Positions 38,033 to 61,133 of a stretch of 64,000 nucleotides of DNA are shown here, piece by piece; within the stretch, counting starts at the first letter, position 1, and each line of letters begins with the position of its first letter. The DNA lies in assembly GCA_020635285.1 (NCBI GenBank), contig JACKAB010000007.1, positions 385,120 to 449,119 of the forward strand, read 5' to 3'. Under the pieces are notes generated by a model. The model was given only the letters and a program-made list of their open reading frames with translations, was not told the origin of the DNA and made no database searches. Source of the DNA: Ignavibacteriales bacterium (GTDB lineage Bacteria; Bacteroidota; Ignavibacteria; Ignavibacteriales; Melioribacteraceae). The translations under genes and the position numbers were made by a program.

Positions 38033-38824
38033 CAATTCTTGAAGAAATAAATGAAGTAAAAAAAGAAGAAGTAAAAAAACTTAGAAAAGAATATACCCTT
38101 TCACGATTCACTGATTCAGAAAATTTTAATAAGAAGAGATTAGAATTTGGAAAAGCTATATCCAATCAAGGTAAAATATCAATTATCGCAGAGATTAAAA
38201 AAGCCAGTCCATCAAAAGGAATTATAAAGGAAGATTTTAATCATCTTAAAATAGCAGAAACCTATATGAAATATGGTGCTGATGCAATTTCTATTTTAAC
38301 TGATGTAAACTTTTTTTAAGGGAAGCATAAAATTCTTAAATGATATTGCTAAATACAAATCTGTGCCGCTGTTAAGAAAGGATTTTATAATTGATGAATT
38401 TCAAATTTATGAAGCCAAAGCTAACGGAGCGGATGTAATCTTTTTAATTGCTGAATCCCTTTCTGCAAATCAAATAAATGAATTAACTGCTGCAGCAATT
38501 GAAACAGATTTAGAAGTCTTATTGGAATTACATTCGGTGGATCAAATTGAGAAAATTAATTTTAAACAGAATAGAATAATTGGAATTAATAATCGTGATC
38601 TAAAATCCTTCAAAGTTGATTTGAACACTGTGAATATAATTTCAGAATTCATTCCAAAAGAAAATATTTTAGTCGCAGAAAGCGGAATTAAAACCAAAGA
38701 AGACATTGATTTTATTAAACAAACTAGAGCAAACTCAATTTTAGTCGGTGAACATTTAATGTCATCAAATAATACAGCGGATTCATTACGACAACTTGTT
38801 GATTGGTGCAGACATGAGAGTTAA
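38029..38824 (+). CDS. trpC: indole-3-glycerol-phosphate synthase, one frameshift at a T7 run (38311-38317)
   Basis: ORFs 38029..38319 and 38363..38824 join if one T is removed: ...[41 protein letters not shown]... Canonical motifs are [12 protein letters not shown] and LRKDFI. Confidence 0.85.
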
Positions 38825-39411
38825 AGTTTGCGGAATTACAAATATTGAAGATGCTATACTTTGCTATAATCTCGGAGCGGATGCTATCGGATTTATATTT
38901 TACGAAAAAAGTAAAAGATATATCAAACCTGAAGAGGCCAAAATAATTATTAGTGAATTACCCGCATTTATTTTAAAAGTTGGAGTATTTGTAAATGAAA
39001 CTCCACAACTAATAAATGAAGTGGCAAAAGACATAAAACTAAATGCAGTTCAATTACACGGTGATGAAACACCTCAAGATATTGATAATATTGATTTGCC
39101 CGTAATTAAAGCTTTTAGAGTTGAGTTGATGATGAATTTGATTATGATGTTCTAACTCAATATAAAAATGTACTTTTCTCTTAGATACTTTTAATAAGAA
39201 TGAATTTGGCGGCACCGGAGAAAAATTTAATTGGAATAAAATTCCCAAAGAAATAAAAAGTAAAATAATTCTTGCTGGCGGAGTATCAATTGAAAACTTA
39301 GAAAATATTTACAAGCAGATTAATCCAGCTGCTATTGATGTTTCTTCATCATTAGAAATAATACCCGGTAAAAAAGACAAAAAGAAAGTTGAATTATTTT
39401 TAAAAAATTAA
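38814..39411 (+). CDS. trpF: phosphoribosylanthranilate isomerase, about 2 frameshifts (39125-39180)
   Basis: [10 protein letters not shown]...GADAIGFIF...KSKRYI...VQLHGDE, then after frame changes LLDTFNKNEFGGTGEKFNWNKIP...ILAGGVSIENL...IDVSSSLE. Confidence 0.8.
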
Positions 39412-43628: not shown

Positions 43629-46600
43629 ATGACTCTTAAACTTATAACTTATAGTTACATATTGCTACTTTGCTTAAACCCACTTTTTGCACAGAACAAG
43701 ATTTTAATAAACGAATTATTATCATCAAATATTAACGGATTAGTTGATAATGAATCTGGCGAATATTCTGATTGGATTGAACTTTATAATCCAAATGATT
43801 CATTGGTTGATATTTCTGGTTTTTACCTTTCTGATAAACATGAAGACCCATTTTTGTGGAGATTTCCTAATAATACTTTTATTGATTCAAACTCGTTTTT
43901 AATTGTTTGGGCTGATGATAAAAATTATGAACTGCATACTAACTTTAAACTTAGTAATGATGGCGAAAAATTATTTCTATATTCTAAAGATTCAGTTTTA
44001 GTTGACTCAATAACTTATGGTAAACAACGCGATGATGTTTCTGTTGGCAGAGATACAAGTAATTTCGAATGGTTATTTTTTGATGAACCAACACCTGGGA
44101 AAATGAATTTGACAAAAAGGGTAAGACCAATAACAAACTTTCTGATAAACCAATATTTTCAATTGAAAGCGGATTTTATTCATCAAGTGTAATTCTAGAA
44201 ATCACCTCCGAAGATAGTAGTGAAATTTATTATACCTTAGATGGCTCGACTCCTTTCAAATCATCAGCACAATTATATACAGAACCAATTAATATTGATT
44301 CAACTTCAATAGTATCCGCAATTTCTATTGAACAAAACAAACTTTCCAGCAACGTAGTTTCAAAATCATTTTTTATTGATGTGGATACAGAACTGCCCGT
44401 AATTTCTATAACAACCGACCCGAAAAATCTTTGGGATGATAATATCGGAATTTATACAAAGGGAACTAATGGCATAAGTTTTTGGAGTGTAAAGGCTAAT
44501 TATTGGCAAGAATGGGAACGACCGGCAAAAGTTGAATTTTTTGAAGATGACAAAACAATAGCATTTGAATTAAATGCCGGAATATCTATAAATGGAGCTA
44601 GAAGAAATATGCTCCAAAAGTCATTAAGAATTTTTGCTAGAGATAAATACGGAGCCCCTTCAATTAATTATAAAATATTTCCGGATAAAGAAATAAGAAA
44701 TTTCACTTCACTTGTTTTAAGGAATGGCGGCTACCCCGAATTTATTTCAACATTGTTTAGAGATGGATTTATCCAAACATTAATTTCAAATGAAATGGAT
44801 ATTGATTATCAAGCTTACAGACCGAGCATTCTTTATTTAAATGGCAAGTATTGGGGAATTTATAATATTCGCGAAAAACAAAATGAAGAATACTTAAAAG
44901 AAAATAATGGAGTGGATCCAGATAATTTAGATATTCTTGAAAACAATATGGTAGTTGTTGAAGGTGATAGTAACCATTACCAAAATATGATTGATTTTAT
45001 TTCAGCAAATGATTTATCTATTCAAGAAAATTATGATTCAGTGAAAAATTTTATGGAGATTGATAATTTTATTAATTATCAAATTGCACAATTATATATA
45101 GCAAATGCTGATTGGCCTGGAAATAATATTAAATTTTGGCGACCCAAAACTAACGATGGGAAATGGAGATGGCTAATATTTGATCTTGATGGAGGTTTTG
45201 GATTATGGCACAATTATGATTTTAATTCAATAGAATTTGCAACTGAAGAAAACAGTTCAGAATGGAATAACGCTCCTTGGTCAACATTCCTTTTTAGAAA
45301 TTTATTAAAGAATCAAGAATTTGCAGATGAATTTGTTCAAAGGTTTGCCGCATATTTAAGCTATAGTTTTAACAGAGAAGATGTAATAGAGTTAATGACT
45401 TCATTCCAAAATAGAATAGAAAAAGAGATTCCCAATCACATAAATAGATGGGCTCCTAACTGTTCAATTACTAATCCGGAATCTAAAGATGGCTGCATGT
45501 TTGAAGATATTTCAACATGGTACGAAAATATAAATATAGTTAAAGAATTTGCAGTCAAAAGACCAAATTATGTAATGGAACATTTGATGAATTACTTTTC
45601 CATTTCTGATACAATAAAAGTTTTAGTTTCTTCAAATAGTACTGAAGGTGGAAATGTTTTTGTTAATGAAGTTAATTCCAAGTTTGGTGTTGAGGCTAAA
45701 CTTTTTAGCGAGAAAAAAATAACATTTCTTGCTAAACCAAAAGCCGGATATAGATTCGTTGGATGGAAGGGCGATATTACTGCAAAAATTCCAACTTTAG
45801 AAATATTACGACAAGATGATTTTTCTATTGAAGCAGTTTTTCAACCGATAAATAATTCAGTAGTTCCTTCAATTATAAATAGTGATTTGGTTCTAACTGC
45901 AGGTAATAGTCCGTATTATACAGAGGATGATATTTATATTTATGAAGATGCAACTCTTACAATTGAACCTGGAGTTGAATTAAATTTATCAGCAGAAAAA
46001 AGTATTTATGTTTATGGTAATATAGAAATGTTTGGTATCGAAGAAGATCCTATCTTAATAAAATCCTCAGTAACTGGCATTAATTGGGGGTCAATTAATT
46101 TTGTTAATGCAAAGAAAAAATCAAAAATATTCCATACAAAAATAAGTGGTACTAGTAATGGTAAAGATAAAATTGATCAAATCGGGGGGATATCCAGTTT
46201 CAATTCTGATTTAGAATTGAACTATGTTGAAATGGATAATGTACAATTCCCAATTTTTATACAGTATGGAAATTTCGTAATGAGAAACAGTAAAATTCAC
46301 ACGGAAGTCACTTCCGATTTTGTGAATGTTAAATATGGCAAAGCTGTAATTGAAAATTGCGAGTTTATTGGAAACCTTGCTCCGGATACTGATGCTATTG
46401 ATTATGATGATGTTAATGCTGGGATAATAAGAAGAAATAAAATTCATAGTTTTTATGGTGATAATAGTGATGCTATTGATATTGGAGAAGGAGCTAAAGA
46501 TATTTTAATAGAAGAAAACTTAATCTATAATTGTTCAGATAAAGGTGTCTCTATTGGCCAAGAATCAACCGCAATTATAAAAGGTAACGTAATTGCTAAT

Positions 46601-47773
46601 TGTAATCTGGGAGTTGGAATTAAAGATGACAAATCATATGGTTTTATTGACCATAATACGTTTTACAATAATAATATTGCAGTTTCTTGTTTTGAAAAAA
46701 ATATTGGAAGAGGCGGGGGTAAAGCAGATATAACCAATTCAATTTTATCAAACTCAACAGAATCAGATATTTTTGCCGATCAATTTTCTGAAATTAATAT
46801 TTCATATTCTCTATCCGATAAAAACAACATTGAGGGAGTAGGAAATTTATTTGGAGAACCAAATTTCTTAAATCCAGATTCATTAGATTTTAGAATTAGC
46901 GAAAGCTCTCTTGCTTTTAATAGTGGCGACCCAAATTATAAACTAGATGCTGATGGCAGCAGAACCAATATGGGTGCTTCTTTTTATAATTTTGTAAACT
47001 TTAATAAAATTGTAATTACAGAAATAAATTATCACTCAAGTGTTAATTTTAATACAAAAGATTGGATTGAATTTTATAATCCAAATAAAAACTCGGTTGA
47101 TCTTTCCGGTTGGATTTTTAAAGATAGCGAAGATGCACATATCTATACCTTTCCTTCAAATGCAATTTTAGGAGCGGAAAAATATTTAATTCTATCTGAA
47201 GATATCACAGAGTTTAAAACATTTTATCCAACCACAAAAAATGTGATTGGTAATTTTGATTTTGGTTTGAATAACTCTGGAGAGACCGTAAGGTTATTTG
47301 ATAATTATGGAAACATAATTGATTCATTAACATATGATGATAAAGATCCTTGGCCCATTGATGCTGATGGGAATGGTTATACATTGCAGTTAATAAATCA
47401 CGAACTTGATAATTCGCTTGCAGAAAATTGGGCTTCCCCAATAATTTATGGTACACCTGGAAATCTTAATATTGTTTCTGATATTGAAAATGATGAAGTA
47501 AAAATACCTAAAGAATATTCATTATCACAAAATTATCCAAATCCGTTTAATCCAAGCACATCAATTAAATTTGAAATTCCTAAGAACGCAAATGTGACAT
47601 TGAAAGTATTTGATGTACTGGGAAGAGAATTAAGAACTATTGTGGATAAAAATATGAAAGCCGGTTCTTATATTTTCCAGTTCAATGCAATTTATCTTTC
47701 AAGTGGTATTTATTTTTATCAGTTAATTGCAAATGATTTTCATAAAACTTATAAAATGATTTTATTAAAGTAA
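43629..47773 (+). CDS. secreted multidomain CotH-kinase-family protein: LTD, chitobiase-C-like domain, CotH, beta-helix, LTD, T9SS C-terminal domain; one frameshift near 44110
   Basis: LTD: ILINELLSSN...GEYSDWIELYNPNDSLVDISGFYLSD. CotH-like core: LPVISITTDPKNLWD...AKVEFFED...SLRIFARDKYG...LVLRNGG...FRDGFIQ...YRPSILYLNGKYWGIYNIREK. Parallel beta-helix repeats follow (NCSDKGVSIG, NCNLGVGI). A second LTD reads IVITEINYHS...KDWIEFYNPNKNSVDLSGW. The protein ends NYPNPFNPSTSIKFEIP...VTLKVFDVLGRE...GIYFYQL...KMILLK. ORFs 43629..44192 and 44381..47773 join through the frame encoding SDKPIFSIESGFYSSSVILEITSED. Confidence 0.8.
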
Positions 47774-47884
47774 AATCATTTTATAAAAAATAGTGTCAAA
47801 CGTAATCAAATCTCTATTATTTATTTAAAGTATATCTTTATCTGCTTTTTATTATTTTTAAATTTTAAAATTTTACAATAACGT

Positions 47885-48946
47885 ATGCTAAAAAATCGAA
47901 ATATAATCTTTGCAATTATCATTTTAATATTGATAATCTTTCTAATTCTTCCAATTGAATATCCTAGAACAATAAAATCCAAAGGGAAGCTTCTCCCTTA
48001 TAAAACTTGGACTTTAGCAAAAGGAACAGATGGCAGACTTATAACATCTCTAAATGATAACTTGACGGGCATTAATGATGGTTTTACAGTGACTCAATTT
48101 GAGCGGGGCGATGCAGTTCAGTTTAAATTAAAAACCGAAGTAATTTCTAAAGACTTTATAAGTAAAGGCGATACAATTGGTTATGTAATTTCAAACATTA
48201 TTGAAAAAGATATTGAAAAATTAAAAGGTGAACTTGAAACTGCGAAAGCCTCGCTCAACATTCAAACAAGCAGCGAAAAAGAATCTGTAATTGATGCTGA
48301 AAAAAGTAAATTAGTTTTTGCAGAAAAAGAATTGGAAGAACAGACAAAAGTGTTTGATAGAAAAAAACTATTGTTTGAACGTCAGTTAATATCGCAGCAA
48401 GAATATGAGGCAGATGAGGCTAAGTTTGAGCTAGCTAAAATAAATGTTAACATTGCAAAAGAAAGATTACGAACAGTACAAAGCGGAGCAAAAAAAGAAG
48501 AAATAAATTTTGCTGCATCACAAATAAGTGCTTTAGAGAATGAAATTAGAATTCTGCAAAAAAGATATGAAAGTAATAATATAGTTACGCCAATTGGAGG
48601 AAATGTTAATAAAACTTTTTCTTCCGATACCTTATTGGTGATTAATGATACAAGTAAAAATGTAATTTTAATTCCAGTTAAATGGAGTGATATTAACAAA
48701 ATACAGGTCAATCAAAGCGTAATTATTTCTTCTGCCGAAGTTGATGAAGTGATAAATGGTAAAATTATATCAATTGGAAATAATGTAAAAACTGCTAATA
48801 ACTTTCAATATGTTTTAGTAACTGTTATCTCCGAGGACAGGATGAAGCAGCTAAAATCTGGGTTGTACGTTGATTGCAAAATAGAATGCGGCTCTGAAAC
48901 AGCTCTTGATATTCTATCCGATTTTTTAAAACCAATCTTCAAATAG
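47885..48946 (+). CDS. HlyD-family membrane-fusion (periplasmic adaptor)-like protein, no adjacent pump
   Basis: An N-terminal TM anchor, a lipoyl-like segment (KGDTIGYV), a long alpha-hairpin coiled coil (~aa 110-230), IVTPIGGNV, and a C-terminal beta-domain. Confidence 0.55.
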   Translation: MLKNRNIIFAIIILILIIFLILPIEYPRTIKSKGKLLPYKTWTLAKGTDGRLITSLNDNLTGINDGFTVTQFERGDAVQFKLKTEVISKDFISKGDTIGYVISNIIEKDIEKLKGELETAKASLNIQTSSEKESVIDAEKSKLVFAEKELEEQTKVFDRKKLLFERQLISQQEYEADEAKFELAKINVNIAKERLRTVQSGAKKEEINFAASQISALENEIRILQKRYESNNIVTPIGGNVNKTFSSDTLLVINDTSKNVILIPVKWSDINKIQVNQSVIISSAEVDEVINGKIISIGNNVKTANNFQYVLVTVISEDRMKQLKSGLYVDCKIECGSETALDILSDFLKPIFK

Positions 48947-48952
48947 AATATC

Positions 48953-49744
48953 ATGAGATTAGAATATAAATTTTTAGTAAATAATTATGATTTAGAACGG
49001 TTAAGAAAAAAACTATTACCTTTTGTTGAGTTAGATCAATTTGTAAAAGAAAGTAACGGAAATGAGTATACAGTAAGAAGCATATATTTTGATTCATCCA
49101 ATTTTGATTATTATCATGAAAAAATAGATGGAATTAAAATTAGAAAAAAATTAAGAATAAGAAGTTACGATACTAAAGCAGATAACAATTTGGTTTTTTT
49201 AGAAATTAAAAATAAGTATGATAATTTTATTGGTAAAAATAGGGCACCTATTTTATTTCATAATCTAAAAAATTTATTAAATACAAATGAAATTGAAACT
49301 TACGCCTTAACGAATAACGGGTATTCAAATTCTTTGCAAGATGGCGAAAAATTTATGCACCATATTTATAAAAGCGGAATGAAACCAACAATTTTAATTG
49401 TATATGAGCGCGAAGCTTTTTTCTCAAAGTTTGATAATAGTTTAAGAATCACTTTTGATAAAAATATTAGATTTTACGATAATCCTAATATTGATAGTCT
49501 TTATAGAGATTCTGATTTAGAAATCGCAACTCCAAACCATTTTGTATTAGAGCTTAAATTTAATAACGGTTATCCAAAGTGGCTGCAGGATATCGTTCAA
49601 GAGTTTGGATTAATTAGAAGATCGGTTTCTAAGTATACAATTTGTATTGATTCATCAAAAAGAATTAATCCGATGCGAAAGAATTTAAGTACATCAAATT
49701 ACTCATTATTCTATGACCAGAATAATGAAGAAGGAATATTTTAA
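48953..49744 (+). CDS. VTC-domain protein (CYTH-like triphosphate-tunnel, polyphosphate-polymerase-type domain)
   Basis: RLEYKFLV...YTVRSIYFDSSNFDYYHEKIDGIKIRKKLRIRSY...VFLEIKNKYDNFIGKNR fits the bacterial VTC-domain pattern (E.KY.v...Y.v.SlYfD......y.....g...R.KlRiR.Y....vflEiK.K). It begins 6 nt after the upstream gene. Confidence 0.75.
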   Translation: MRLEYKFLVNNYDLERLRKKLLPFVELDQFVKESNGNEYTVRSIYFDSSNFDYYHEKIDGIKIRKKLRIRSYDTKADNNLVFLEIKNKYDNFIGKNRAPILFHNLKNLLNTNEIETYALTNNGYSNSLQDGEKFMHHIYKSGMKPTILIVYEREAFFSKFDNSLRITFDKNIRFYDNPNIDSLYRDSDLEIATPNHFVLELKFNNGYPKWLQDIVQEFGLIRRSVSKYTICIDSSKRINPMRKNLSTSNYSLFYDQNNEEGIF

Positions 49745-49746
49745 AT

Positions 49747-50421
49747 ATGCTGCAAGATATTAATAATATTTTTAATGTTGGAATTACACCCCAAGAAATG
49801 TTTCTAAATTTATTAGTCGGTTTAGTTGCGGGAATAATCATTTCAATTTTTTATCGTAAATCATATAATGGTCCGGGTTACCAGGCATCATTTGTAAACT
49901 CGTTGATTTTATTGGTTATAATCACATCAATTGTAATAATGGTGATTGGAAATAATCTTGCGCGTGCATTTGGTTTAGTCGGTGCCATGTCAATTATTAG
50001 ATTTAGAACCGCTGTTAAAGAAACTCAAGATATAATGTATATTTTCTTTGCCCTTGCAATTGGTATGGCTGTTGGAGTTGGACAGCACGGACTAGCAATT
50101 TTTAGTTCTTTCTTTATTGGAATAATTACTTATGTGCTTTCTAAATCAAAATTTTCCACACCAATTAAAAGTGACCTTTTGCTTCAGTTTACATATAATG
50201 CAAATGGAAATGGAGTTGCAGATTACACAAAATTGATTAATGATTATTGCAAAAATAGTAAGTTAATAAATGCCAAAGCTATTGGTTCAGAAGAAATGTT
50301 AGAACTCTCCTATTATGTTGGATTTAGGAATAAAGAAAAAACCACAGAATTTGTTCAAAAATTAAGAAAAATTGAAGGTGTGCTTAACGTAAACCTTTTT
50401 TATGATGAAGAATATTTTTAA
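49747..50421 (+). CDS. DUF4956-family membrane protein
   Basis: Several TM helices are present. The signature GLVGAMSIIRFRTAVKETQDIMYIFFALAIGMAVGVG is typical of DUF4956. It begins 2 nt after the VTC gene. Confidence 0.7.
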   Translation: MLQDINNIFNVGITPQEMFLNLLVGLVAGIIISIFYRKSYNGPGYQASFVNSLILLVIITSIVIMVIGNNLARAFGLVGAMSIIRFRTAVKETQDIMYIFFALAIGMAVGVGQHGLAIFSSFFIGIITYVLSKSKFSTPIKSDLLLQFTYNANGNGVADYTKLINDYCKNSKLINAKAIGSEEMLELSYYVGFRNKEKTTEFVQKLRKIEGVLNVNLFYDEEYF

Positions 50422-50488
50422 ACTAATTCTTACTTCCTAAAGACATTAAATCTTATTAAATTATCTTTTCAACTACGAAAGGTATGTT

Positions 50489-52803
50489 ATGAAAACAAAA
50501 TTTCTCATGCCTCTATTTTTATTTCTATTTTTTTCAATGATTTCACTTTCTCAAAATGATGAAAGCTGGAAAGTTTATGATGATTCTGAAGTCGCAGAAA
50601 TTAGAATCACTATGAATCCAGGTGATTTGCAATATCTGTACGACTATCCTGAGAAAGAAAATGATTCAATGATGGTTTCAAGTATTAATTTCAAAAATGC
50701 ATTAATTGATGAAACTATAGACTCAGTTGGAATAAGAATAAGAGGGAATACATCAAGGGAATCTGCAAAAAAATCTTTTAAGCTTTCTTTTAATACATTC
50801 ATAAAAGGCAGAAAATTTTATTCACTTGAAAAAATGAATTTAAATGGAGAACATAATGATCCTTCAATTATTAGGAGCAAATTATGTTGGGATTTTTTTA
50901 ACAATATAGGAATAGTTTCTTCCCGAGCATCTCACGCAGCAGTTTATATAAATGGGGATTATTACGGTCTTTACATTTCAGTTGAACATATTGATGAAAA
51001 CTTCATTAAAAAAAACTTCAAAGATGATTCTGGAAATTTATGGAAATGTTTATATGGAGCTAATTTAACTCCTCTAAATAACAATAATATTTCTGCGTAC
51101 ACATTAGAAACCAATACTGGAGCTAATGATTTTTCTGAGTTAGATACGCTGACAAAAATAATCAATAATACAACACTTAGTAATTTTGAAAATTCAATTG
51201 ATAAATATTTTAATGTAATGGAATATTTAAAAATACAGGCAGTTGATATTATTACCGGAAGTTGGGACGATTATTCAGTACTGAGTAATAACTTTTATTT
51301 ATATCATGATCCTTCAACCGATAGATTTCATTGGGTCCCATATGATTATGATAATACTTTTGGTATTGATTGGCTTGGATTTGATTGGGCAAATGAAAAT
51401 CCATACACTTTCGGGAAATTGCTTAACCAGCCACGCCCTTTAATAAATAGGCTCTTGGAAATTCCAAGGTATAAAAATATGCTTTCTCATTTTATGGAGT
51501 TTTATCTTGAAACATATATGCAAGCTGAAAAATTTAATGGACATGTGGATTCAATAAAGACAATAATTGAAGCATTTGCGTTGGTAGATGATTATAAATC
51601 ATATGATTGGGGTTTTACTAACGAAGATTTTCAAAATTCCTTTGATGCTGAAAATTTTACAATAGATCCGCATGTAAAGTATTCAATTAAAGAATACAAT
51701 TTGCTGCGAAAAAATTCTTTGAATTCACAAATAGATTACGTCGACTCGGAACCAATTATATATAATATTAGTTTATCAAACACAAAACCAGCTTATGATG
51801 AATCCATAAAAGTGAATGCTTCGGTCTTTTCAGTAAACCCAATTCAATTGGCATATGCAGAGTTAGAATATAAAGATGGGAGCAAAAGCAATATTCCTTT
51901 AACTTATACGCCCGTAAATAATACTAATAAAGTTGAATTGAATGATAATTGGGAAACGGAAATTCCTGTACTAGGAAAAAACCAAAATGTTAAAATAAGA
52001 ATATATGTTGAAGATAATCTTGGGACAAATGCATTTTATCCAGCCGATGGAATAAGTATTAAAACTGCAGGAGAAATAACAAAAGAAGTAGTATTTAGTG
52101 AGTTGATGAGTTCCAATGTTTCAACAATTCAAGATAATGTTGGGGAATATGATGATTGGCTGGAAATTTATAATCCGCAAGATACAACGGTAAATTTAAG
52201 TGGTAAATTTTTAACAGATAAAATAGATAAACTAATAAAATGGCAAATCCCAGCAAATGTAAAAATAGAACCAAAAGAACAAATCTTAATATGGTGCGAT
52301 GAGGATCAAGACCAATAAGGTCCACATATTAATTTTAAGTTAAGCTCAAACGGAGAATTTATTGCAATTGTAAATAATGATGGGACAACCATTTTGATTC
52401 AATAACAATTCCAGCATTAGGTGAAAATAATTTTTATTCAAAATTTGATAATGATATTTGGGAAATTACAAATAACCCAACACCTGGTGCCCCGAACATA
52501 ATTACGGATATTAACGAAATCAAGTTTAGATTTGAAAATAATTTATCGGCATTTCCAAATCCTTTAACCCAAAAAACAAATATTGAATTTTCAACGAATG
52601 TTATTACTGATATTAATCTAAGGATATTTAACATAATGGGGAAACAGTTTGGACTACAAAATTGAAAAAGCATCCCTAGGTAAGCATTTAATAGAATGGG
52701 ATAGTCTCAATAATTTTGGAAACAAATTACCAAGTGGCATTTATTTTTTTTACAAGCTATTGGCTCTAACTTTAATATAATTATTAAGTTAGTCTTATTG
52801 AAA
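50489..52803 (+). pseudogene. secreted CotH-family protein with C-terminal LTD and T9SS domain (copy A); in-frame stop at 52316 plus frameshifts in the 3' part, end approximate
   Basis: ORF 50489..52318 has a signal peptide and CotH-like core (IRIRGNTSRESAKKSFKLSFN...MNLNGEHNDPSIIRSKL...AVYINGDYYGLYISVEHIDENF) plus an LTD (EYDDWLEIYNPQDTTVNLSG). Copy A reads caa-taa-ggt where copy B has caa-gca-ggt. The protein continues as GPHINFKLSS...FPNPL...IEF...LRIFNIMGKQ...SGIYFF...KLVLLK with further frame changes. Confidence 0.75.
50552..52385 (+). repeat. tandem duplication, unit A (~1.83 kb, high identity to 52965..54800)
   Basis: Line-by-line comparison, for example caaaatgatgaaagctggaaagtttatgatgattctgaagtcgcagaaattagaatcactatgaat at both 50552 and 52965. 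Identity persists to ...ggtccacatattaattttaagttaagctcaaa. The offset is ~2413 nt. Confidence 0.9.
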
Positions 52804-52904
52804 GAAGTTATTTTAAAATATTTTCTTCTGAAAAAAAGTTTACAAATTTTCATTCAATCTTATTTCTGTTTATTTTATAAATATTTTAATATGAAGAGAA
52901 TTGT

Positions 52905-55229
52905 ATGAAAAATTGTAAATATATAATAATATTATTTTTTATCCTCGTTGTATCAAACCAAGCACAAAATGATGAAAGCTGGAAAGTTTATGATGATTCT
53001 GAAGTCGCAGAAATTAGAATCACTATGAATCAGGTGATTTGCAATATCTGTACGACTATCCTGAGAAAGAAAATGATTCAATGATGGGTTTCAAGTATTA
53101 ATTTCAAAAATGCATTAATTGATTGAAACTATAGACTCAGTTGGAATAAGAATAAGAGGGAATACATCAAGGGAATCTGCAAAAAAATCTTTTAAACTTT
53201 CTTTTAATACCTTCATAAAGGTCGTAAATTTTATTCACTTGAAAAATTGAATTTTAAATGGAGAACATAATGATCCTTCAATTATTAGGAGCAAATTATG
53301 TTGGGATTTTTTTAACAAATATAGGAATAGTTTCTTCCCGAGCATCTCACGCAGCAGTTTATATAAATGGGGATTATTACGGTCTTTACATTTCAGTTGA
53401 ACATATTGATGAAAACTTCATTAAAAAAACTTCAAAGATGATTCTGGAAATTTATGGAAATGTTTATATGGCGCTAATTTAACTCCTCTAAATAACAATA
53501 ATATTTCTGCGTACACATTAGAAACCAATACTGGAGCTAATGATTTTTCTGAGTTAGATACGCTGACAAAAATAATCAATAATACAACACTTAGTAATTT
53601 TGAAAATTCAATTGATAAATATTTTAATGTGATGGAATATTTAAAAATACAGGCAGTTGATATTATTACCGGAAGTTGGGACGATTATTCAGTACTGAGT
53701 AATAACTTTTATCTATATCATGATCCTTCAACCGATACGTTTCATTGGATCCCATATGATTATGACAATACATTTGGTATTGATTGGCTTGGATTTGATT
53801 GGGCAAATGAAAATCCATACACTTTTCGGAAATTGCTTAACCAGCCACGCCCCTTTAATAAATAGGCTCTTGGAAATTCCAAGGTATAAAAATATGCTTT
53901 TTCATTTTATGGAGTTTTATCTTGAAACATATATGCAAGCTGAAAAATTTAATGGGCATGTGGATTCAATAAAAACAATAATTGAACCATTTGCTTTGGT
54001 AGATGATTATAAATCATATGATTGGGGTTTTACTAATGAAGATTTTCAAAATTCCTTTGATGCTGAAAATTTTACAATAGATCCGCATGTAAAGTATTCA
54101 ATTAAAGAATACAATTTGCTGAGAAAAAATTCTTTGAATTCACAAATAGATTACGTCGACTCGGAACCAATTATATATAATATTAGTTTATCAAACACAA
54201 AACCAACTTATGATGAATCCATAAAAGTGAATGCTTCGGTCTTTTCAGTAAACCCAATTCAATTAGCATATGCAGAGTTAGAATATAAAGATGGGAGCAA
54301 AAGCAATGTTCCTTTAACTTATACGCCCGTAAATAATACTAATAAAGTTGAATTGAATGATAATTGGGAAACTCAACTTCCTGCACTAGGAAAAAACCAA
54401 AATGTTAAAATAAGAATATATGTTGAAGATAATATTGGGACAAATGCATTTTATCCTAACGATGGAATAAGTATTAAAACAGCAGGAGAAATAACAAAAA
54501 GAAGTAGTATTTAGTGAGTTGATGAGTTCCAATGTTTCAACAATTCAAGATAATGCTGGGGAATATGATGATTGGCTGGAAATTTATAATCCGCAAGATA
54601 CAACGGTAAATTTAAGTGGTAAATATTTAACAGATAAAATAGATAATTTAATAAAATGGCAATTCCCAGCAAATGTAAAAATAGAACCAAAGGAACAAAT
54701 TTTAATATGGTGCGATGAGGATCAAGACCAAGCAGGTCCACATATTAATTTTAAGTTAAGCTCAAAAGGAGAGTTTATTGCAATTGTAAATAATGATGGA
54801 ATTACAATAGTTGATTCAGTAACAATACCCGCGTTGAATGATAATGAATCTTTTGCGAGAGAAAATAATATCGGCGATTGGTTTCTCACAACTTCTAGCA
54901 CACCAGGTGCAAGCAACATTGTAACTAGCATTTCAGATCAATTAATTCCCAAATACTCTTATAAGCTGGAAGCATTCCCAAATCCTTTTAATCCTTCTAC
55001 CAATATTGAATATGAAATTGCCTCACCAATGAATGTAGAGTTAAAAATTTATGATATTTTAGGAAGGGAAGTTTGGAGTACAAGTAAGATTAAAAAAGAA
55101 GCTGGAATACATCAATTGCAATGGAATGGAAGTGATTACGCAAGTAATGAATTATCAAGTGGAATATATTTGCTTAATATTAATAGTGAAACTTATAATA
55201 AAACTATAAAGCTTATGTTGCTTCGGTAA
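52905..55229 (+). pseudogene. secreted CotH-family protein with LTD and T9SS domain (copy B); at least 8 single-base indels relative to copy A
   Basis: ATG at 52905 gives MKNCKYIIILFFILVVSNQAQNDESWKVYDD... Indels versus copy A include aatcaggtg versus aatccaggtg, gatgggtttc versus gatggtttc, attgattgaaac versus attgatgaaac, and ccacgcccctttaat versus ccacgccctttaat. The intact 3' ORF 54519..55229 has the LTD and FPNPFNPSTNIEYEI...ELKIYDILGRE...GIYLL...KLMLLR. Confidence 0.8.
52965..54800 (+). repeat. tandem duplication, unit B
   Basis: See unit A. It differs by scattered substitutions and at least 8 mostly homopolymer-associated indels. Confidence 0.9.
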
Positions 55230-55293
55230 ATAATCATAGTAATTTTCGATAATTATTTGTAATGTTTACAAAACTATTTAGTTGGAGATTGCA

Positions 55294-56139
55294 ATGTCTA
55301 AAAAAAAATCTGACACAAAAAAATCAGATAAGAATTCTAAAAGTGAACTAGAAGTTGATAAGAAAAAATTAGAAAAAAAATTTTATGAAAAGGAATTAAG
55401 TAAACTTCAAATTGAACTTGTAAAATTACAAGAATGGATTAAAGAGAAAAGACTAAAAGTAGTTGTAATATTTGAAGGAAGAGATGCTGCCGGCAAGGGT
55501 GGAGTAATAAAAAGAATTAACCAAAGTTTAAATCCTAGAATTTGCAGAGTAGTTGCATTAGGTACACCAACTGAAAGAGAAAAATCACAGTGGTATTTTC
55601 AAAGATATGTTACGCATCTACCAGCCGGTGGTGAAATGGTTCTGTTTGATAGAAGTTGGTATAATAGAGCTGGCGTTGAAAAAGTAATGGGCTTCTGTAC
55701 TGATGAGGAGCATAAAGAGTTTTTAAGATCTTGCCCCGAATTTGAACGTATGCTTGTCCGATCCGGCATAAAGGTAATTAAGTATTATTTTTCAGTTAGC
55801 GATGAAGAACAAGAAAAACGTTTTCAAGCGAGAATACATGATAGAACAAAGCGCTGGAAATTAAGCCCAATGGATTTAGAATCACGCTCAAAATGGGTTG
55901 AGTATTCAAAAGCCAAAGATGAGATGTTTGCATATACAGATATTAAACAAGCTCCATGGTATGTTGTAAATGCTGATGATAAAAAGAAAGCCAGATTAAA
56001 TTGCATGAGTCATTTATTAAGTCTTATTAATTATGAAGACTTGACACCCGAGCCAATTAAATTACCTCCGAGACAAAAAGATAAAGGTTACATTCGTCCG
56101 CCAATTACTGATCAAACCTTTGTCCCGGACAAATATTAA
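55294..56139 (+). CDS. ppk2: polyphosphate kinase 2 (PPK2 family)
   Basis: VVIFEGRDAAGKGGVIKRI (Walker A), RVVALGTPTEREKSQWYFQRYVTHLPAGGEMVLFDRSWYNRAGVE and ERMLVRSGIKVIKYYFSVS are present. The ATG at 55294 (MSKKKSD) is preferred over the TTG at 55282. Confidence 0.9.
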   Translation: MSKKKSDTKKSDKNSKSELEVDKKKLEKKFYEKELSKLQIELVKLQEWIKEKRLKVVVIFEGRDAAGKGGVIKRINQSLNPRICRVVALGTPTEREKSQWYFQRYVTHLPAGGEMVLFDRSWYNRAGVEKVMGFCTDEEHKEFLRSCPEFERMLVRSGIKVIKYYFSVSDEEQEKRFQARIHDRTKRWKLSPMDLESRSKWVEYSKAKDEMFAYTDIKQAPWYVVNADDKKKARLNCMSHLLSLINYEDLTPEPIKLPPRQKDKGYIRPPITDQTFVPDKY

Positions 56140-56141
56140 TT

Positions 56142-56903
56142 TTATATTTTTATTGATAATCCAATTTTAGTATATGTATCCAAATCTTTTACGGTATCTG
56201 GAGGTTTACTGTCGTATCTTAATCCAAGACTAACTGATATGGAAACTTTCTCATTCAAACCAACACTAAGATGATTTTCACTTAACATTCTTATATCTTT
56301 AAAATTATCAAATCTTGGCTGCGCATAAATGATAATAGAAAGAGTTGAATTATCAGTTAAAGAATTTGTATAACTTAAATAATTACTCCACCTATGATGA
56401 TCCGTTAATGATGGATGAAAATTATCTGGACTTAAATCTAATTTTTCATGCTCAAACATATAAGCCGTTCCAAATGTTAAATTACTATTCTCAGTGCTTA
56501 ATAAACCAGATCTAACTCCCACTCCAATTAGGCTGCGGAATAATATCAATTGTTTTTTGTTATAATTTATTTGGGCAAAAAATTCCGGAGATATAAAAGT
56601 TTCAGTTTCCTTAATCAATCTAAAATGTAATAAAGCATTGTTTGAATATTCTTTTCCATTGTTCCATCCATAATCACCAAGTGCAATTAAAAATGAATTA
56701 AAACTATCTTTGTGATAATTTATTCTTCCGTCAACTCCAAATTCTTGAATATCGGTATTACCGGTTTTTGCCGAAACATAAAAAGAAAGATTTCCAAACA
56801 ACCCATCCGATTGATTTACTTTATTGTACTTTTCGATGTTTACTTGTGCGTGTATTGTAATAGAAAATATACTGAGTAATAAAAGAAATTTTAAAGTGTT
56901 CAT
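56142..56903 (-). CDS. outer-membrane beta-barrel protein, DUF481 (YdiY)-like
   Basis: 253 aa with a signal peptide, beta-strand periodicity and AKTGNTD near the N-terminus. Size and pattern resemble DUF481; this is from memory only. Confidence 0.4.
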   Translation of the reverse strand: MNTLKFLLLLSIFSITIHAQVNIEKYNKVNQSDGLFGNLSFYVSAKTGNTDIQEFGVDGRINYHKDSFNSFLIALGDYGWNNGKEYSNNALLHFRLIKETETFISPEFFAQINYNKKQLILFRSLIGVGVRSGLLSTENSNLTFGTAYMFEHEKLDLSPDNFHPSLTDHHRWSNYLSYTNSLTDNSTLSIIIYAQPRFDNFKDIRMLSENHLSVGLNEKVSISVSLGLRYDSKPPDTVKDLDTYTKIGLSIKI

Positions 56904-59669: not shown

Positions 59670-61133
59670 TTAGAATAATTTTATAATGTTACCAATATCA
59701 GAGTTATCAATATAATCTCCGTAAACGGGATCTGTTCCTTTAATATTTTCTATGAATAATTGACTACCCTTACCTTTTGCATAAAAAGGAACAAGCGAAT
59801 TAGTATGATGAGAACTGAACCATTCCACCTCAGGCATTTGACCTTTACCTTTTCCAATAAGGGGCTTCCATTTTTTATAATTATTCTGCGTATTCTGTCT
59901 GTTAGAATTTGGTCCAAGAAGATAGCCGGTTTCATGATCTGCCGTAACTATAATTAAAGTTTCATCCCAGCTGCTATTTTCTTCTACCCAATTACACGCA
60001 GCTTCTACAGCTAAATTAAAATCGATTTGTTCTTCAATTGTTCGGCTTAAATTATTATCATGTGCGGCCCAATCTACAGCACCTCCTTCAGACATCAGAA
60101 AAAAACCTTTTGGATTTTCATCAAGGACATTTATTGCAGCTAATGTCATTTCTTTTAATGTTGGAATTGTTTGAATGAAGGGGACTGAAAATGGAGTCCA
60201 TTTTTCATTGGTTGTATCTCTTTCTACTTGAGTGGCTTGACCACTTTTAAAAACTCCTATTAATCTTTTGGGAGTTTCCCCGTTCATAAATTCTTGAAAG
60301 GATTCTCTATCTTGGATTAATGTCCATTCATCAAATACACCATCACCGTCTGCATCATTTCCGGCAGTTCCTTTACTTAACATATCCCAAGTATCTTTTC
60401 CTCCAACATATCTGTATTTTGATTCTGGAAGTAATTTGCCTTCTTCATCGATTATAGGTTTACCACCATTATTCATGTCCCATATTTCTTTAGATCCTAT
60501 ATATCGCTCGCTAAATTCACTTACTAGTTTTCCAGCAGCAGTATAAAATGGATGTCCACCACCCATAATTACATCAACTTTACTTTTTAAAATCATCTCC
60601 TCAGCAATCTCTTTATAGTTTTGACGACTCTTATTATGTGCTACAAATGCAGCCGGAGTGGCATTGCTAAATGGCACCGTTGAAATTACACCTGTTGATT
60701 TTCCTTGTTTTTCAAACTTATCAATAATTGTTTCCATAGGATTATTTAAAGTATCGACTGATAAAACACCCTTATCAGTTTTTTTGCCTGTAGCAATTGC
60801 AGATCCTGAAGCCGCAGAATCAGTTGGTCTTTTAATCACCCAACTGAAATCTGTCCATGCAGAATCCGGATCATATTTCAAACCTTTTGTGTAATATGTT
60901 GACATTGCCAGTCTTACAGGAAATTTCTCATATATTTGTTCACCTGTTTTACCAAATTGGTAGTAACTTGCTATATCAACATGATTAAAACCGCATCCAT
61001 CACTGATAAATAAAATTACATTTTTGGGCTTTTGTTGTTTTGCTATTTGTTCTAATTCCTTTGAGGTGCAGCAGTTTTGTAAAACTACTGTGAGAAGTGC
61101 GAGTTTAATAACGATACTAAATTTCTTTTTCAA
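59670..61133 (-). CDS. alkaline phosphatase (PhoA family), secreted
   Basis: ILFISDGCGFNH (metal-binding Asp), TDSAASGSAIATGKKT (active-site Ser motif D-S-A-A-S), ADHETG and HT..LVPFYAKG are present. Confidence 0.85.
   Translation of the reverse strand: MKKKFSIVIKLALLTVVLQNCCTSKELEQIAKQQKPKNVILFISDGCGFNHVDIASYYQFGKTGEQIYEKFPVRLAMSTYYTKGLKYDPDSAWTDFSWVIKRPTDSAASGSAIATGKKTDKGVLSVDTLNNPMETIIDKFEKQGKSTGVISTVPFSNATPAAFVAHNKSRQNYKEIAEEMILKSKVDVIMGGGHPFYTAAGKLVSEFSERYIGSKEIWDMNNGGKPIIDEEGKLLPESKYRYVGGKDTWDMLSKGTAGNDADGDGVFDEWTLIQDRESFQEFMNGETPKRLIGVFKSGQATQVERDTTNEKWTPFSVPFIQTIPTLKEMTLAAINVLDENPKGFFLMSEGGAVDWAAHDNNLSRTIEEQIDFNLAVEAACNWVEENSSWDETLIIVTADHETGYLLGPNSNRQNTQNNYKKWKPLIGKGKGQMPEVEWFSSHHTNSLVPFYAKGKGSQLFIENIKGTDPVYGDYIDNSDIGNIIKLF

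What the first reader, a model, noticed from the sequence alone, without database searches (positions are those of the whole stretch)
43629..55229. Three T9SS-exported LTD-CotH proteins bracket the VTC operon
Seen in the sequence:
- The three large genes are 43629-47773, 50489-52803 and 52905-55229.
- Each combines a CotH-family core with lamin-tail domains (SDWIELYNP...V(D/N)LSG) and a C-terminal NYPNPFNPST...KMILLK-type sorting domain.
- All three should therefore be exported by a type IX secretion system and displayed on or released from the cell surface.
- The first also carries a chitobiase-C-like module and a parallel beta-helix.

Established knowledge: CotH is an atypical protein kinase fold in Bacillus spore coats.

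Inference: an extracellular kinase needs an extracellular phosphoryl donor, which is notable given the adjacent polyP-related genes. The function of CotH in non-sporulating diderm bacteria is essentially unexplored.
Basis: partly seen in the sequence, partly recalled or inferred. Interest (0 to 1): 0.65.

Follow-up and report, generated by a model that had tools for sequence, protein, structure and literature searches.

The report
Secreted CotH kinases beside polyphosphate genes
An activated-sludge Ignavibacteria-type bacterium carries a conserved cluster that pairs surface-exported CotH-type kinases with a yeast-like polyphosphate polymerase and its membrane partners, but the three kinase genes are broken in this assembly, most likely by sequencing errors, and the kind of cluster is already partly known.

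Summary
The domain reading is correct. Lamin-tail, CotH, chitobiase-C-like, beta-helix and T9SS type A sorting domains all pass curated profiles. The CotH catalytic aspartates are retained in all three cores. The modelled gene 2 core superposes on Bacillus cereus CotH (TM 0.86).

None of the three genes is a single ORF in the window. Gene 1 has a 2-nt frameshift. Gene 2 has an in-frame TAA and four frameshifts. Gene 3 has nine 1-nt homopolymer indels. Independent short-read metagenome contigs remove almost every lesion. trpC, trpF and other genes in the window are broken in the same way, so assembly error is the likeliest cause. The gene 2/gene 3 tandem varies between strains, and gene 2 looks chimeric. 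Relatives carry one small CotH gene, with or without the large one.

In 80 species, VTC is followed by DUF4956 in 76 and preceded by a HlyD-like adaptor in 69. CotH lies within 9 kb in 38, and it usually carries lamin-tail and T9SS domains. PPK2 adjacency is lineage-specific. A CotH–VTC–DUF4956 triad is already published for Gram-positive Pel loci.

This is a diderm, T9SS-linked variant of a known but uncharacterised module. PolyP as an extracellular phosphoryl donor remains speculation.

The parts
43629..44113 (+). Gene 1, first frame. Sec signal peptide (MTLKLITYSYILLLCLNPLFA|QN...) and N-terminal lamin-tail domain.
   Evidence: The ORF is listed. Pfam LTD scores 62.2 bits. It is collinear with residues 1-167 of the intact 1381-aa orthologue in L002.
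44114..44115 (+). Two extra bases in an A-run (ACAAAAAGGG) that break gene 1.
   Evidence: Short-read contigs of X1 (depth 25.7) and X3 (depth 120.3) both lack 2 nt here. Removing them gives a clean 1380-aa ORF.
44116..47773 (+). Gene 1, second frame. Domains: CHB_HEX_C_1/Fn3_assoc (~44165-44362), CotH core (~44603-45574), InlB-B-repeat-like (~45707-45850), right-handed beta-helix (~46274-46675), second LTD (~47003-47335), T9SS type A CTD (~47534-47761).
   Evidence: Pfam. TIGR04183 scores 42.4 bits. It is 60.6% identical to L002 bigCotH residues 165-1381.
47885..48946 (+). HlyD-family membrane-fusion (periplasmic adaptor)-like protein with an N-terminal transmembrane helix.
   Evidence: Pfam HlyD_3 scores 27.6 bits against a cut-off of 22.2. 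It lies directly upstream of VTC in 69 of 80 species loci. A 271-nt metatranscriptome contig is identical to 47896-48166.
48953..49744 (+). VTC-domain protein, a homologue of the triphosphate-tunnel polyP polymerase.
   Evidence: Pfam VTC scores 160.7 bits. The profile hits the yeast Vtc4 catalytic domain (3g3q) at E 6.6e-13. Vtc4 K200, R264 and R266 align to the invariant K6, R68 and R70.
49747..50421 (+). DUF4956 membrane protein: five predicted helices plus a C-terminal ACT-like domain. It has an invariant basic motif, NNLARAFGLVGAMSIIRFRTAVK.
   Evidence: Pfam DUF4956 scores 58.5 bits. Alignment A3 gives the invariant columns. The AF2 model has pLDDT 76. Foldseek returns ACT-domain hits. 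It lies directly downstream of VTC in 76 of 80 loci.
50489..52318 (+). Gene 2, open part. Signal peptide, CotH core (~50732-51640), Ig-like domain (~51755-52063), first two-thirds of the LTD. It ends at an in-frame TAA (52316-52318).
   Evidence: The AF2 model has pLDDT 86.6 and matches 5JDA with TM 0.86. The only short-read contig that covers 52316 reads GCA, but it belongs to the single-copy strain.
52319..52803 (+). Gene 2, broken C-terminal part (rest of the LTD plus the T9SS CTD). Frameshifts at 52391, 52637, 52657 and 52744.
   Evidence: A 2688-nt contig in X1 and X4 corrects all four. After read-through the CTD scores 41.9 bits on TIGR04183.
52905..55229 (+). Gene 3. Own signal peptide, then a CotH core 97% identical in DNA to gene 2 but with nine 1-nt homopolymer indels, then an intact LTD and T9SS CTD (54519-55229).
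   Evidence: All nine indels are corrected in short-read contigs. The corrected sequence is a 773-aa ORF with no stops. dN/dS against gene 2 is 0.19. TIGR04183 scores 49.3 bits.
55282..56139 (+). Polyphosphate kinase 2. It belongs to the neighbourhood only in the closest relatives.
   Evidence: Pfam PPK2 scores 360 bits. TIGR03707 scores 384 bits, above its cut-off. It is adjacent to VTC in only 3 of 80 loci.
56142..56903 (-). DUF481 protein. From my own knowledge, not tested here, this is an outer-membrane beta-barrel-type family. Its membership of the system is doubtful.
   Evidence: Pfam DUF481 scores 73.2 bits. It recurs only in L004.

Best explanation
The region is one copy of a gene cluster conserved in Ignavibacteriota and allied FCB-group phyla. 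The gene order is: large CotH protein (LTD, chitobiase-C-like, CotH, beta-helix, LTD, T9SS CTD), HlyD-like periplasmic adaptor, VTC-type polyphosphate polymerase homologue, DUF4956 membrane/ACT protein, then one or two small CotH proteins (CotH, Ig, LTD, T9SS CTD).

Shown:
- The CotH proteins have Sec signal peptides whose predicted cleavage exposes Gln.
- They have a kinase fold with the two catalytic aspartates.
- They have type A T9SS sorting domains. They are therefore built to be exported and displayed on, or released from, the cell surface.

Shown with high probability:
- The frameshifts and stop that break all three genes in this window are errors of an indel-prone assembly, not biology.
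- The gene 2/gene 3 pair sits at a strain-variable hotspot. Gene 2 as written joins the N-part of the dominant single-copy allele to the C-part of a minor strain's paralogue.

Inferred:
- VTC polymerises polyP from a nucleotide triphosphate at the cytoplasmic face.
- DUF4956, which has an invariant Arg/Lys-rich helix, passes the chain through the inner membrane, with the adaptor bridging the periplasm.
- The surface CotH kinases act on extracellular protein or polysaccharide in the same process.
- Whether polyP is their phosphoryl donor, their substrate or only a co-product is open. I put about 0.2 on the donor idea.
For: Domains and CTDs.

Catalytic residues:
- The equivalents of B. subtilis D228 and D251 (named in PMC7821199) are invariant in all three cores and in 32 family members.
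- The AF2 model matches 5JDA at TM 0.86, E 6e-22.

Artefact reading:
- Short-read contigs from independent studies remove the gene 1 frameshift, all nine gene 3 indels and all four gene 2 frameshifts.
- trpC and trpF are also frameshifted. Most or all of four runs from four studies disagree with the window at 38311, 39118, 39163 and 39396.
- More genes look split or truncated: PhzF, a PLP decarboxylase, an M90 peptidase, a HisKA kinase and a Pyr_redox enzyme.
- Corrected gene 3 has no stops, and dN/dS against gene 2 is 0.19.

Synteny:
- L001 and L002 have intact orthologues in the same order.
- Across 80 species loci: DUF4956 76/80, adaptor 69/80, CotH 38/80.
- 38 of 45 nearby CotH genes carry a CTD and 40 of 45 an LTD.

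VTC: the tunnel residues are conserved.

DUF4956: helices plus an ACT domain.

Adaptor distribution: among the 11 loci where no adjacent adaptor was detected are both Anaerolineae loci. The Gram-positive triads are described without one (PMC7112168).

Genetics: in S. intermedius, deleting the CotH or the DUF4956 gene lowers Pel-dependent aggregation (PMC12345266).
Against: - No run holds the window's exact sequence. The best word share is 0.78 even in an intact gene. Real strain-specific frameshifts therefore cannot be excluded read by read.
- No contig from a strain with gene 2's own C-part covers the TAA at 52316.
- T9SS machinery genes are not in the window and were not checked.
- About half of VTC-DUF4956 loci have no CotH within 9 kb, so CotH is an accessory, not an obligate partner.
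- No biochemical data exist for any bacterial VTC, DUF4956 or LTD-CotH protein.
- CotH from Bacillus uses ATP. No kinase of this fold is known to me to use polyP (own knowledge).
- The transmembrane part of DUF4956 has no structural match.
- RNA evidence is one 271-nt contig.
Confidence: 0.6

Rival explanations
1. The lesions are real. In this strain the three CotH genes are pseudogenes or phase-variable genes that slip at homopolymer tracts, so the locus is decaying or switched off.
For: All gene 3 indels and the gene 1 lesion lie in homopolymer runs, where slippage also happens in vivo. No public run reproduces the window exactly, so the source strain itself was never inspected. The locus varies strongly between strains.
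Against: The same kind of lesion hits trpC, trpF and several other ordinary genes, and most or all of four independent runs contradict the window at each trpC/trpF site. Corrected gene 3 has no nonsense codons, and dN/dS against gene 2 is 0.19. Lesions cluster where short-read depth of the dominant strain is near zero, as expected for poorly polished consensus.
Confidence: 0.15
2. The CotH proteins are ordinary ATP-dependent surface or secreted kinases. Alternatively they act in the periplasm before export. They phosphorylate matrix proteins or exopolysaccharide. VTC-DUF4956-adaptor makes or exports polyP as a separate matrix or storage product, or regulates phosphate balance. PolyP is not the kinase's donor.
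For: Bacillus CotH is an ATP/Mn-dependent Ser/Thr kinase with the same catalytic residues (PMC7821199). Half of the VTC loci lack CotH. In S. intermedius the triad affects a polysaccharide-dependent phenotype (PMC12345266).
Against: ATP supply outside a diderm cell is unexplained. The strong co-location (38 of 80 within 9 kb) still argues for a shared process.
Confidence: 0.3
3. The CotH domains work as binding or adhesin modules rather than enzymes, like the Mucorales CotH invasins. The LTD, Ig and beta-helix parts make a surface adhesin.
For: Mucorales CotH proteins act as host-receptor ligands (PMC9973265). The multi-domain architecture with beta-helix, Ig-like and LTD modules resembles adhesins.
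Against: The catalytic Asp/Asn/Asp set and other active-site columns are invariant across 32 family members at 43-67% identity. That is not expected for a pure binding module.
Confidence: 0.1
4. The adjacency of CotH genes and VTC genes is coincidental.
For: CotH/LTD/CTD proteins are very numerous in these phyla (2848 hits at E<=1e-10, a lower bound because only 8000 candidates were scored).
Against: CotH lies within 9 kb of VTC in 38 of 80 species from many phyla, on the same strand and usually directly flanking the core. The same triad occurs in Firmicutes and Actinobacteria (PMC7112168).
Confidence: 0.03

Closest known systems
Bacillus spore-coat kinase CotH (PDB 5JD9/5JDA)
   Same: Pfam CotH family. 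phmmer E 1e-29. Predicted fold TM 0.86. The catalytic Asp (D228), Asn and metal-binding Asp (D251) equivalents are conserved.
   Different: The organism is a non-sporulating diderm. The proteins have a Sec signal peptide, lamin-tail, Ig-like and T9SS sorting domains, and the large paralogue also has chitobiase-C-like and beta-helix modules. Substrates are unknown and there are no CotB/CotG-like neighbours.
CotH - polyP polymerase (VTC) - DUF4956 accessory genes of Gram-positive Pel loci (S. intermedius SIR_1594/1593/1592; PMC7112168, PMC12345266)
   Same: A secreted CotH, a VTC-domain protein, and DUF4956 with an MgtC-like membrane part plus an ACT domain, side by side on one strand.
   Different: No pel genes lie in the 64-kb window. 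An extra HlyD-like adaptor is present. CotH is exported by T9SS and carries an LTD instead of FN3. There is no DUF4832. The host is a diderm. The mBio paper reports not finding the triad outside Pel loci, and this cluster and the 80 loci examined here are such cases.
Yeast VTC complex (Vtc4 polyP polymerase coupled to membrane translocation; PDB 3G3Q, 7YTJ, 8I6V)
   Same: Homologous catalytic tunnel domain with conserved basic residues. The enzyme is paired with a membrane component.
   Different: No SPX domain. No fused DUF202-type transmembrane helices. The membrane partner is the unrelated DUF4956. Activity has not been tested.
T9SS cargo proteins of Bacteroidota (e.g. P. gingivalis PPAD, gingipains)
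   Same: Signal peptide, catalytic domain, Ig-like domain, type A CTD (TIGR04183). The Ig-like domain of gene 2 matches the PPAD IgSF in Foldseek.
   Different: The phylum is Ignavibacteriota, where T9SS presence is only suggested (PMC11285876). The cargo is a kinase-fold protein, and no paper in the library links CotH to T9SS.
Secretory-pathway kinases of the Fam20C type
   Same: CotH is reported as distantly related to Fam20C (PMC7821199). Both act outside the cytosol.
   Different: Fam20C works in the Golgi lumen, where ATP is imported. Here the compartment is the cell surface or the medium.

Membership tests
CotH kinase family (PF08757) | Profile match above the curated cut-off. | tested here: met
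   149.5 bits (gene 1) and 213.9 bits (gene 2) against a cut-off of 23.8. The gene 3 core is 97% identical in DNA to gene 2.
CotH kinase family (PF08757) | Catalytic Asp and metal-binding Asp (B. subtilis D228 and D251) retained. | tested here: met
   5JD9 chain D224, N229, D247 and D249 are invariant columns in all three cores. D260, N268, D286 and D288 are invariant in 32 homologues. Mapping chain numbering to D228/D251 rests on motif and identical spacing, which is inference. The primary paper could not be read.
CotH kinase family (PF08757) | Atypical protein-kinase-like fold. | tested here: met
   The AF2 model of gene 2 has pLDDT 86.6. Foldseek hit 5JDA has E 6e-22, TM (target) 0.86 and rmsd 3.1. 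Gene 1 and gene 3 were not modelled.
CotH kinase family (PF08757) | Phosphotransfer activity. | not testable with these tools
   Needs a recombinant protein assay.
T9SS type A cargo | C-terminal sorting domain matching TIGR04183 / PF18962. | tested here: met
   TIGR04183 scores 42.4 (gene 1), 41.9 (gene 2, only after indel read-through) and 49.3 bits (gene 3), with a cut-off of 23. PF18962 scores 32.4 and 37.9 against 27.
T9SS type A cargo | N-terminal Sec signal peptide in the same polypeptide as the CTD. | tested here: not met
   Signal-peptide-like N-termini with Gln after the predicted cleavage site are visible by eye (Q-rule, PMC5837995). In the window sequence as given, each gene is interrupted between signal peptide and CTD. 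The feature is met only after the corrections seen in short-read contigs. No signal-peptide predictor was available.
T9SS type A cargo | T9SS machinery encoded in the genome. | not tested
The literature only suggests T9SS in Ignavibacteriota (PMC11285876, PMC5837995).
Lamin-tail domain (PF00932) | Profile match above the cut-off. | tested here: met
   62.2, 72.1, 35.2 (truncated) and 49.7 bits against a cut-off of 34.3.
CotH-VTC-DUF4956 module | The three genes are adjacent and co-oriented. | tested here: met
   Window gene order. The same order is seen in L001, L002 and many of 80 loci.
CotH-VTC-DUF4956 module | Association with a pel exopolysaccharide locus, as in the described Gram-positive cases. 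| tested here: not met
   The flanks are a trp operon, a glyoxalase-like gene, PPK2, an ion channel and others. No pel-like gene appears among the window proteins scanned.
VTC-type polyP polymerase (PF09359) | Profile match and conserved tunnel residues (Vtc4 K200, R264, R266). | tested here: met
   160.7 bits. Aligned K6, R68 and R70 are invariant in A2. Which Vtc4 residues are catalytic comes from my own knowledge of the Vtc4 structure paper, not from a paper read here.
VTC-type polyP polymerase (PF09359) | PolyP synthesis activity coupled to membrane translocation. | not testable with these tools
   Needs biochemistry.

The most novel reading that the evidence does not exclude
HlyD-like adaptor + VTC + DUF4956 form a previously unrecognised envelope-spanning machine in diderm bacteria. 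It synthesises polyphosphate and extrudes it to the cell surface. The T9SS-displayed LTD-CotH kinases then use that polyP as phosphoryl donor, or attach or cap it, to modify surface or matrix molecules. This would be a bacterial route to extracellular polyP and to ATP-independent extracellular phosphorylation.
Probability: 0.15. Interest if true: 0.85.

Novelty: new variant of a known kind. Interest (0 to 1): 0.45.

Why it matters
How bacteria get polyphosphate outside the cell, and what secreted CotH-fold kinases do in non-sporulating bacteria, are both open questions. A 2026 preprint reports PPK-independent extracellular polyP in the Bacillus cereus group with no known pathway (PMC13484657).

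This cluster offers a concrete, widely conserved candidate system. It combines a cytoplasmic VTC polymerase, a membrane partner with an invariant basic helix, a periplasmic adaptor detected next to VTC in 69 of the 80 loci and in neither Anaerolineae locus, and surface-exported kinases. The organism lives in activated sludge, where polyP turnover has practical importance.

The practical lesson is separate. The window comes from an indel-prone assembly, so gene counts and 'pseudogenes' read from it need checking against accurate reads.

Tried and rejected
- Alternative genetic code as the cause of the interruptions. Rejected because the reading frame changes at each lesion, and only one in-frame stop exists.
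- True pseudogenisation. Considered and ranked low.
- Look-up of the window's own 609-aa product to identify the source record. It is not on record.
- The primary CotH structure paper (PNAS 2016, PMC4922149) is not held. Catalytic residues were taken from PMC7821199 instead.
- Sigma-70 promoter and terminator scan of 43.4-56.4 kb. Counts were no better than shuffles, so it says nothing about operon limits.
- PDB sequence search with DUF4956. Nothing significant. Foldseek matched only the ACT-like C-terminal domain, not the membrane part.
- RNA evidence. Only one 271-nt metatranscriptome contig lies on the adaptor gene, and two transcriptomes labelled organism A gave nothing.
- Search for a run holding the exact window sequence. 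The best word share was 0.60 for the CotH region and 0.78 for an intact gene.
- PPK2 as part of the system. Its adjacency is confined to the closest relatives, 3 of 80 loci.

Full report
**1. Observation**

- Pfam gives LTD for 43629-44189.
- For the frame running 44099-47770, Pfam gives CHB_HEX_C_1/Fn3_assoc, CotH, a weak InlB-B-repeat, Beta_helix, a second LTD and Por_Secre_tail.
- For 50489-52315 it gives CotH plus a truncated LTD, and for 54519-55226 it gives LTD plus Por_Secre_tail.
- NCBIfam TIGR04183 (T9SS type A sorting domain) scores 42.4, 41.9 and 49.3 bits against a cut-off of 23.

None of the three is a single ORF.
- Gene 1 changes frame near 44114.
- Gene 2 stops at a TAA (52316-52318). 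It then needs four frame changes (52391, 52637, 52657, 52744) to reach its CTD, and there is no stop codon after LLK at 52803.
- Gene 3 is 97% identical in DNA to gene 2 over 50560-52390 versus 52975-54806, but it carries nine 1-nt length changes in homopolymer runs.
- The last ~450 nt of genes 2 and 3 are only ~62% identical.

**2. Are the lesions real?**

I laid Logan contigs of public activated-sludge metagenomes on the window.
- X1 and X3 both lack 2 nt at 44114. That restores a 1380-aa gene 1, collinear with an intact 1381-aa orthologue in L002.
- All nine gene 3 indels are reversed in contigs of X1, X3, X4, X5, X10 or X11. Applying exactly those nine edits gives a 773-aa ORF with no stop.
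- The substitutions that separate it from gene 2 give dN/dS 0.19. That is purifying selection, not decay.
- The four gene 2 frameshifts are reversed in a 2688-nt contig present in X1 (depth 8) and X4 (depth 31).

The lesions are not special to CotH.
- trpC is split over two frames and trpF over three.
- Most or all of four runs from four different studies disagree with the window at 38311, 39118, 39163 and 39396.
- A PhzF-like gene, a PLP decarboxylase, an M90 peptidase, a HisKA kinase and a Pyr_redox enzyme also look truncated or split.
- A free-living bacterium with a broken trp operon and this many split genes is much less likely than an indel-prone, probably long-read, consensus.

The caveat is that no public run holds the window exactly. 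The best 31-mer share is 0.78 even in an intact gene, so the source strain itself was not inspected.

**3. The tandem pair**

Three variants of the gene that follows DUF4956 coexist in X4 and X1.
- (i) A dominant allele matches the window's gene 2 N-part and runs straight into a gene 3-type C-part. It is a single gene. X2 contig 15 joins 52209 to 54626, skipping 2416 nt. X4 contig 19 reads GCA instead of TAA at 52316 and continues with gene 3-type sequence.
- (ii) A second allele is about 82% identical.
- (iii) A minor strain has a contig that runs from the end of DUF4956 through a CotH N-part less than 80% like the window. It continues through the window's gene 2 C-part without frameshifts, the intergenic spacer and the start of gene 3.

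So a two-gene arrangement does exist, but with diverged paralogues. The window's gene 2 joins allele (i) to the C-part of (iii) at 52316-52391, exactly where the TAA and the first frameshift lie. I read this as a chimeric assembly join, or less likely a recent gene conversion.

Close species have one small CotH (L001, L003-L005), and some also have the large one (L002). 'Three' is therefore the maximum for some strains, not a fixed feature.

**4. What the proteins are**

The organism belongs to the Ignavibacteriales/Melioribacteraceae. The nearest species representative is L005, a Melioribacteraceae MAG with 90% VTC identity. L083 is a relative 96.9% identical in DNA.

The architecture CotH + LTD + Por_Secre_tail at about 770-800 aa is very common. 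There are 2848 proteins at E<=1e-10, which is a lower bound, and they are annotated 'CotH kinase family protein' or 'T9SS type A sorting domain-containing protein' in Ignavibacteriota, Chlorobi, Caldithrix and Marinimicrobia MAGs.

- Gene 2 matches B. cereus CotH at E 1e-29.
- The residues aligned to the aspartates whose mutation inactivates B. subtilis CotH (D228Q and D251A, PMC7821199) are invariant, as are a neighbouring Asn and a second Asp. This holds in all three cores and in 32 homologues.
- The AF2 model (pLDDT 86.6) superposes on 5JDA with TM 0.86.
- Residues 423-525 form an Ig-like domain that resembles the IgSF domain of the T9SS cargo PPAD.
- All three predicted mature N-termini start with Gln. 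This fits the Q-rule reported for Bacteroidetes and for Ignavibacterium album (PMC5837995).

**5. The neighbourhood**

Between the CotH genes lie three genes.
- A HlyD-family adaptor-like protein (47885-48946).
- A VTC-domain protein (48953-49744). Its profile hits the yeast Vtc4 catalytic domain at E 6.6e-13, with Vtc4 K200, R264 and R266 aligned to the invariant K6, R68 and R70.
- DUF4956 (49747-50421). It is modelled as five helices plus an ACT-like domain, and it has an invariant basic motif, NNLARAFGLVGAMSIIRFRTAVK.

I scanned 80 species-representative loci fetched with a VTC profile, using HMMs built from the window and its relatives.
- DUF4956 follows VTC in 76 of 80 loci.
- The adaptor precedes VTC in 69 of 80.
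- CotH lies within 9 kb in 38 of 80, or 25 of the 47 loci with long flanks.
- PPK2 is adjacent in only 3.
- Of 45 nearby CotH genes, 38 carry a CTD in the same ORF and 40 have an LTD nearby on the same strand.
- No adjacent adaptor was detected in the two Anaerolineae loci, in the WOR-3 and Stahlbacteria loci and in a few others, some of them at contig edges. The published Gram-positive triads are described without one.

Against relatives, VTC, DUF4956 and PPK2 are 75-92% identical. CotH (50-66%) and the adaptor (42-67%) are much less conserved. Together with the three coexisting alleles, this marks the exported parts as fast-evolving.

**6. Mechanism**

Shown: a conserved, co-oriented cluster that joins a cytoplasmic polymerase homologue, a membrane protein, a periplasmic adaptor and exported kinase-fold proteins.

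Inferred, by analogy with the yeast VTC complex, which couples polyP synthesis to translocation:
- VTC makes polyP.
- DUF4956, with the adaptor in diderms, moves it outward.
- The surface CotH proteins act in the same extracellular process.

I rate the idea that polyP is the phosphoryl donor at about 0.15-0.2. The more conservative rival is ATP-dependent kinases plus a separate polyP product, at about 0.3.

Genetic support comes only from S. intermedius. There, deleting the CotH or the DUF4956 gene lowers Pel-dependent aggregation (PMC12345266).

**7. Comparison and novelty**

The CotH-polyP polymerase-DUF4956 triad has been described next to Gram-positive pel loci (PMC7112168, PMC12345266) and is visible in C. 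perfringens NELoc-2 (PMC2879425).

The 2025 paper states that the triad was not found outside Pel loci. The window and the 80 loci examined here show it without pel genes, in diderm phyla, with an added adaptor and T9SS-type export.

The library holds no paper that links CotH to T9SS. Only five papers mention DUF4956.

I therefore file this as a new variant of a known, functionally uncharacterised module. The proteins themselves are ordinary members of large annotated families.

**8. Verdict**

- Interest is moderate (0.45). The system is worth testing, but the specific 'three genes' picture rests on an error-bearing, probably chimeric stretch of assembly, and the central idea is not new for Gram-positives.

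Noticed in passing
window 38029-39405: trpC (IGPS) is split over two frames and trpF (PRAI) over three. Short-read contigs from most or all of four independent runs differ from the window by indels at 38311 (-1), 39118 (-5), 39163 (+A) and 39396 (+T). This marks the window as an indel-prone assembly.
   Followed up: yes
window 3812-4468, 5152-5890, 16547-16906, 23737-24360, 24971-26008: Several other genes match only part of their Pfam profile or appear as adjacent fragments. They are an M90 peptidase, a HisKA kinase, a Pyr_redox enzyme in the otherwise ORF-poor 14.2-16.5 kb stretch, a PhzF-like gene and a PLP decarboxylase. Further frameshifts are the likely cause.
   Followed up: partly
window 50422-52330 (reads of X1, X4): At least three alleles of the CotH gene directly after DUF4956 coexist in one sludge sample: window-like, about 82% identical, and under 80% identical. 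The flanking genes stay about 97-99% alike. This is a strain-level hypervariable surface-protein locus.
   Followed up: partly
window 47514-47560 and 55032-55152: The NPFNPST part of the T9SS sorting domain attracts many contig joints and loose ends, and depth rises about five-fold there (170 to 680). The same short DNA words occur in many other cargo genes of the community.
   Followed up: no
window 61462-62857 (-): Another protein with a T9SS-CTD-like C-terminus, also split between two frames (-1 and -2). The 422-aa upstream ORF has no Pfam match.
   Followed up: partly
window 59673-61133 (-): An alkaline phosphatase family protein lies about 3.5 kb downstream of PPK2. It is a further phosphate-related gene near the cluster.
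   Followed up: no
window 7258-14226 (-): A 2322-aa intact ORF with an N-terminal cyclic-nucleotide-binding domain, long coiled-coil-like stretches and a C-terminal STAS domain. It sits in the most AT-rich part of the window (GC about 26%, AT skew about -0.30).
   Followed up: no
window 17157-22123 (+): Two adjacent multihaem cytochrome genes (502 and 1159 aa) have cytochrome c7/c3 repeats and MtrC/MtrF-like domains. This suggests extracellular electron transfer.
   Followed up: no
window 22154-23734 (+), 26716-30954 (-) and 32591-33364 (-): Three ORFs (527, 1412 and 258 aa) have no Pfam match at E<=0.001.
   Followed up: no
L010 8857-10947; L026, L032, L045, L048, L061, L064, L068, L079: One Calditrichaceae locus has a protein of four lamin-tail domains plus a CTD, without CotH, right after DUF4956. 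No HlyD-like adaptor was detected next to VTC in loci from Anaerolineae, WOR-3, Stahlbacteria and one Bacteroidales MAG.
   Followed up: partly
window 43629-43700, 50489-50560, 52905-52970: All three CotH proteins have predicted signal-peptide cleavage that leaves an N-terminal Gln (LFA|QN, SLS|QN, NQA|QN). This matches the 'Q-rule' described for Bacteroidetes and for Ignavibacterium album.
   Followed up: partly
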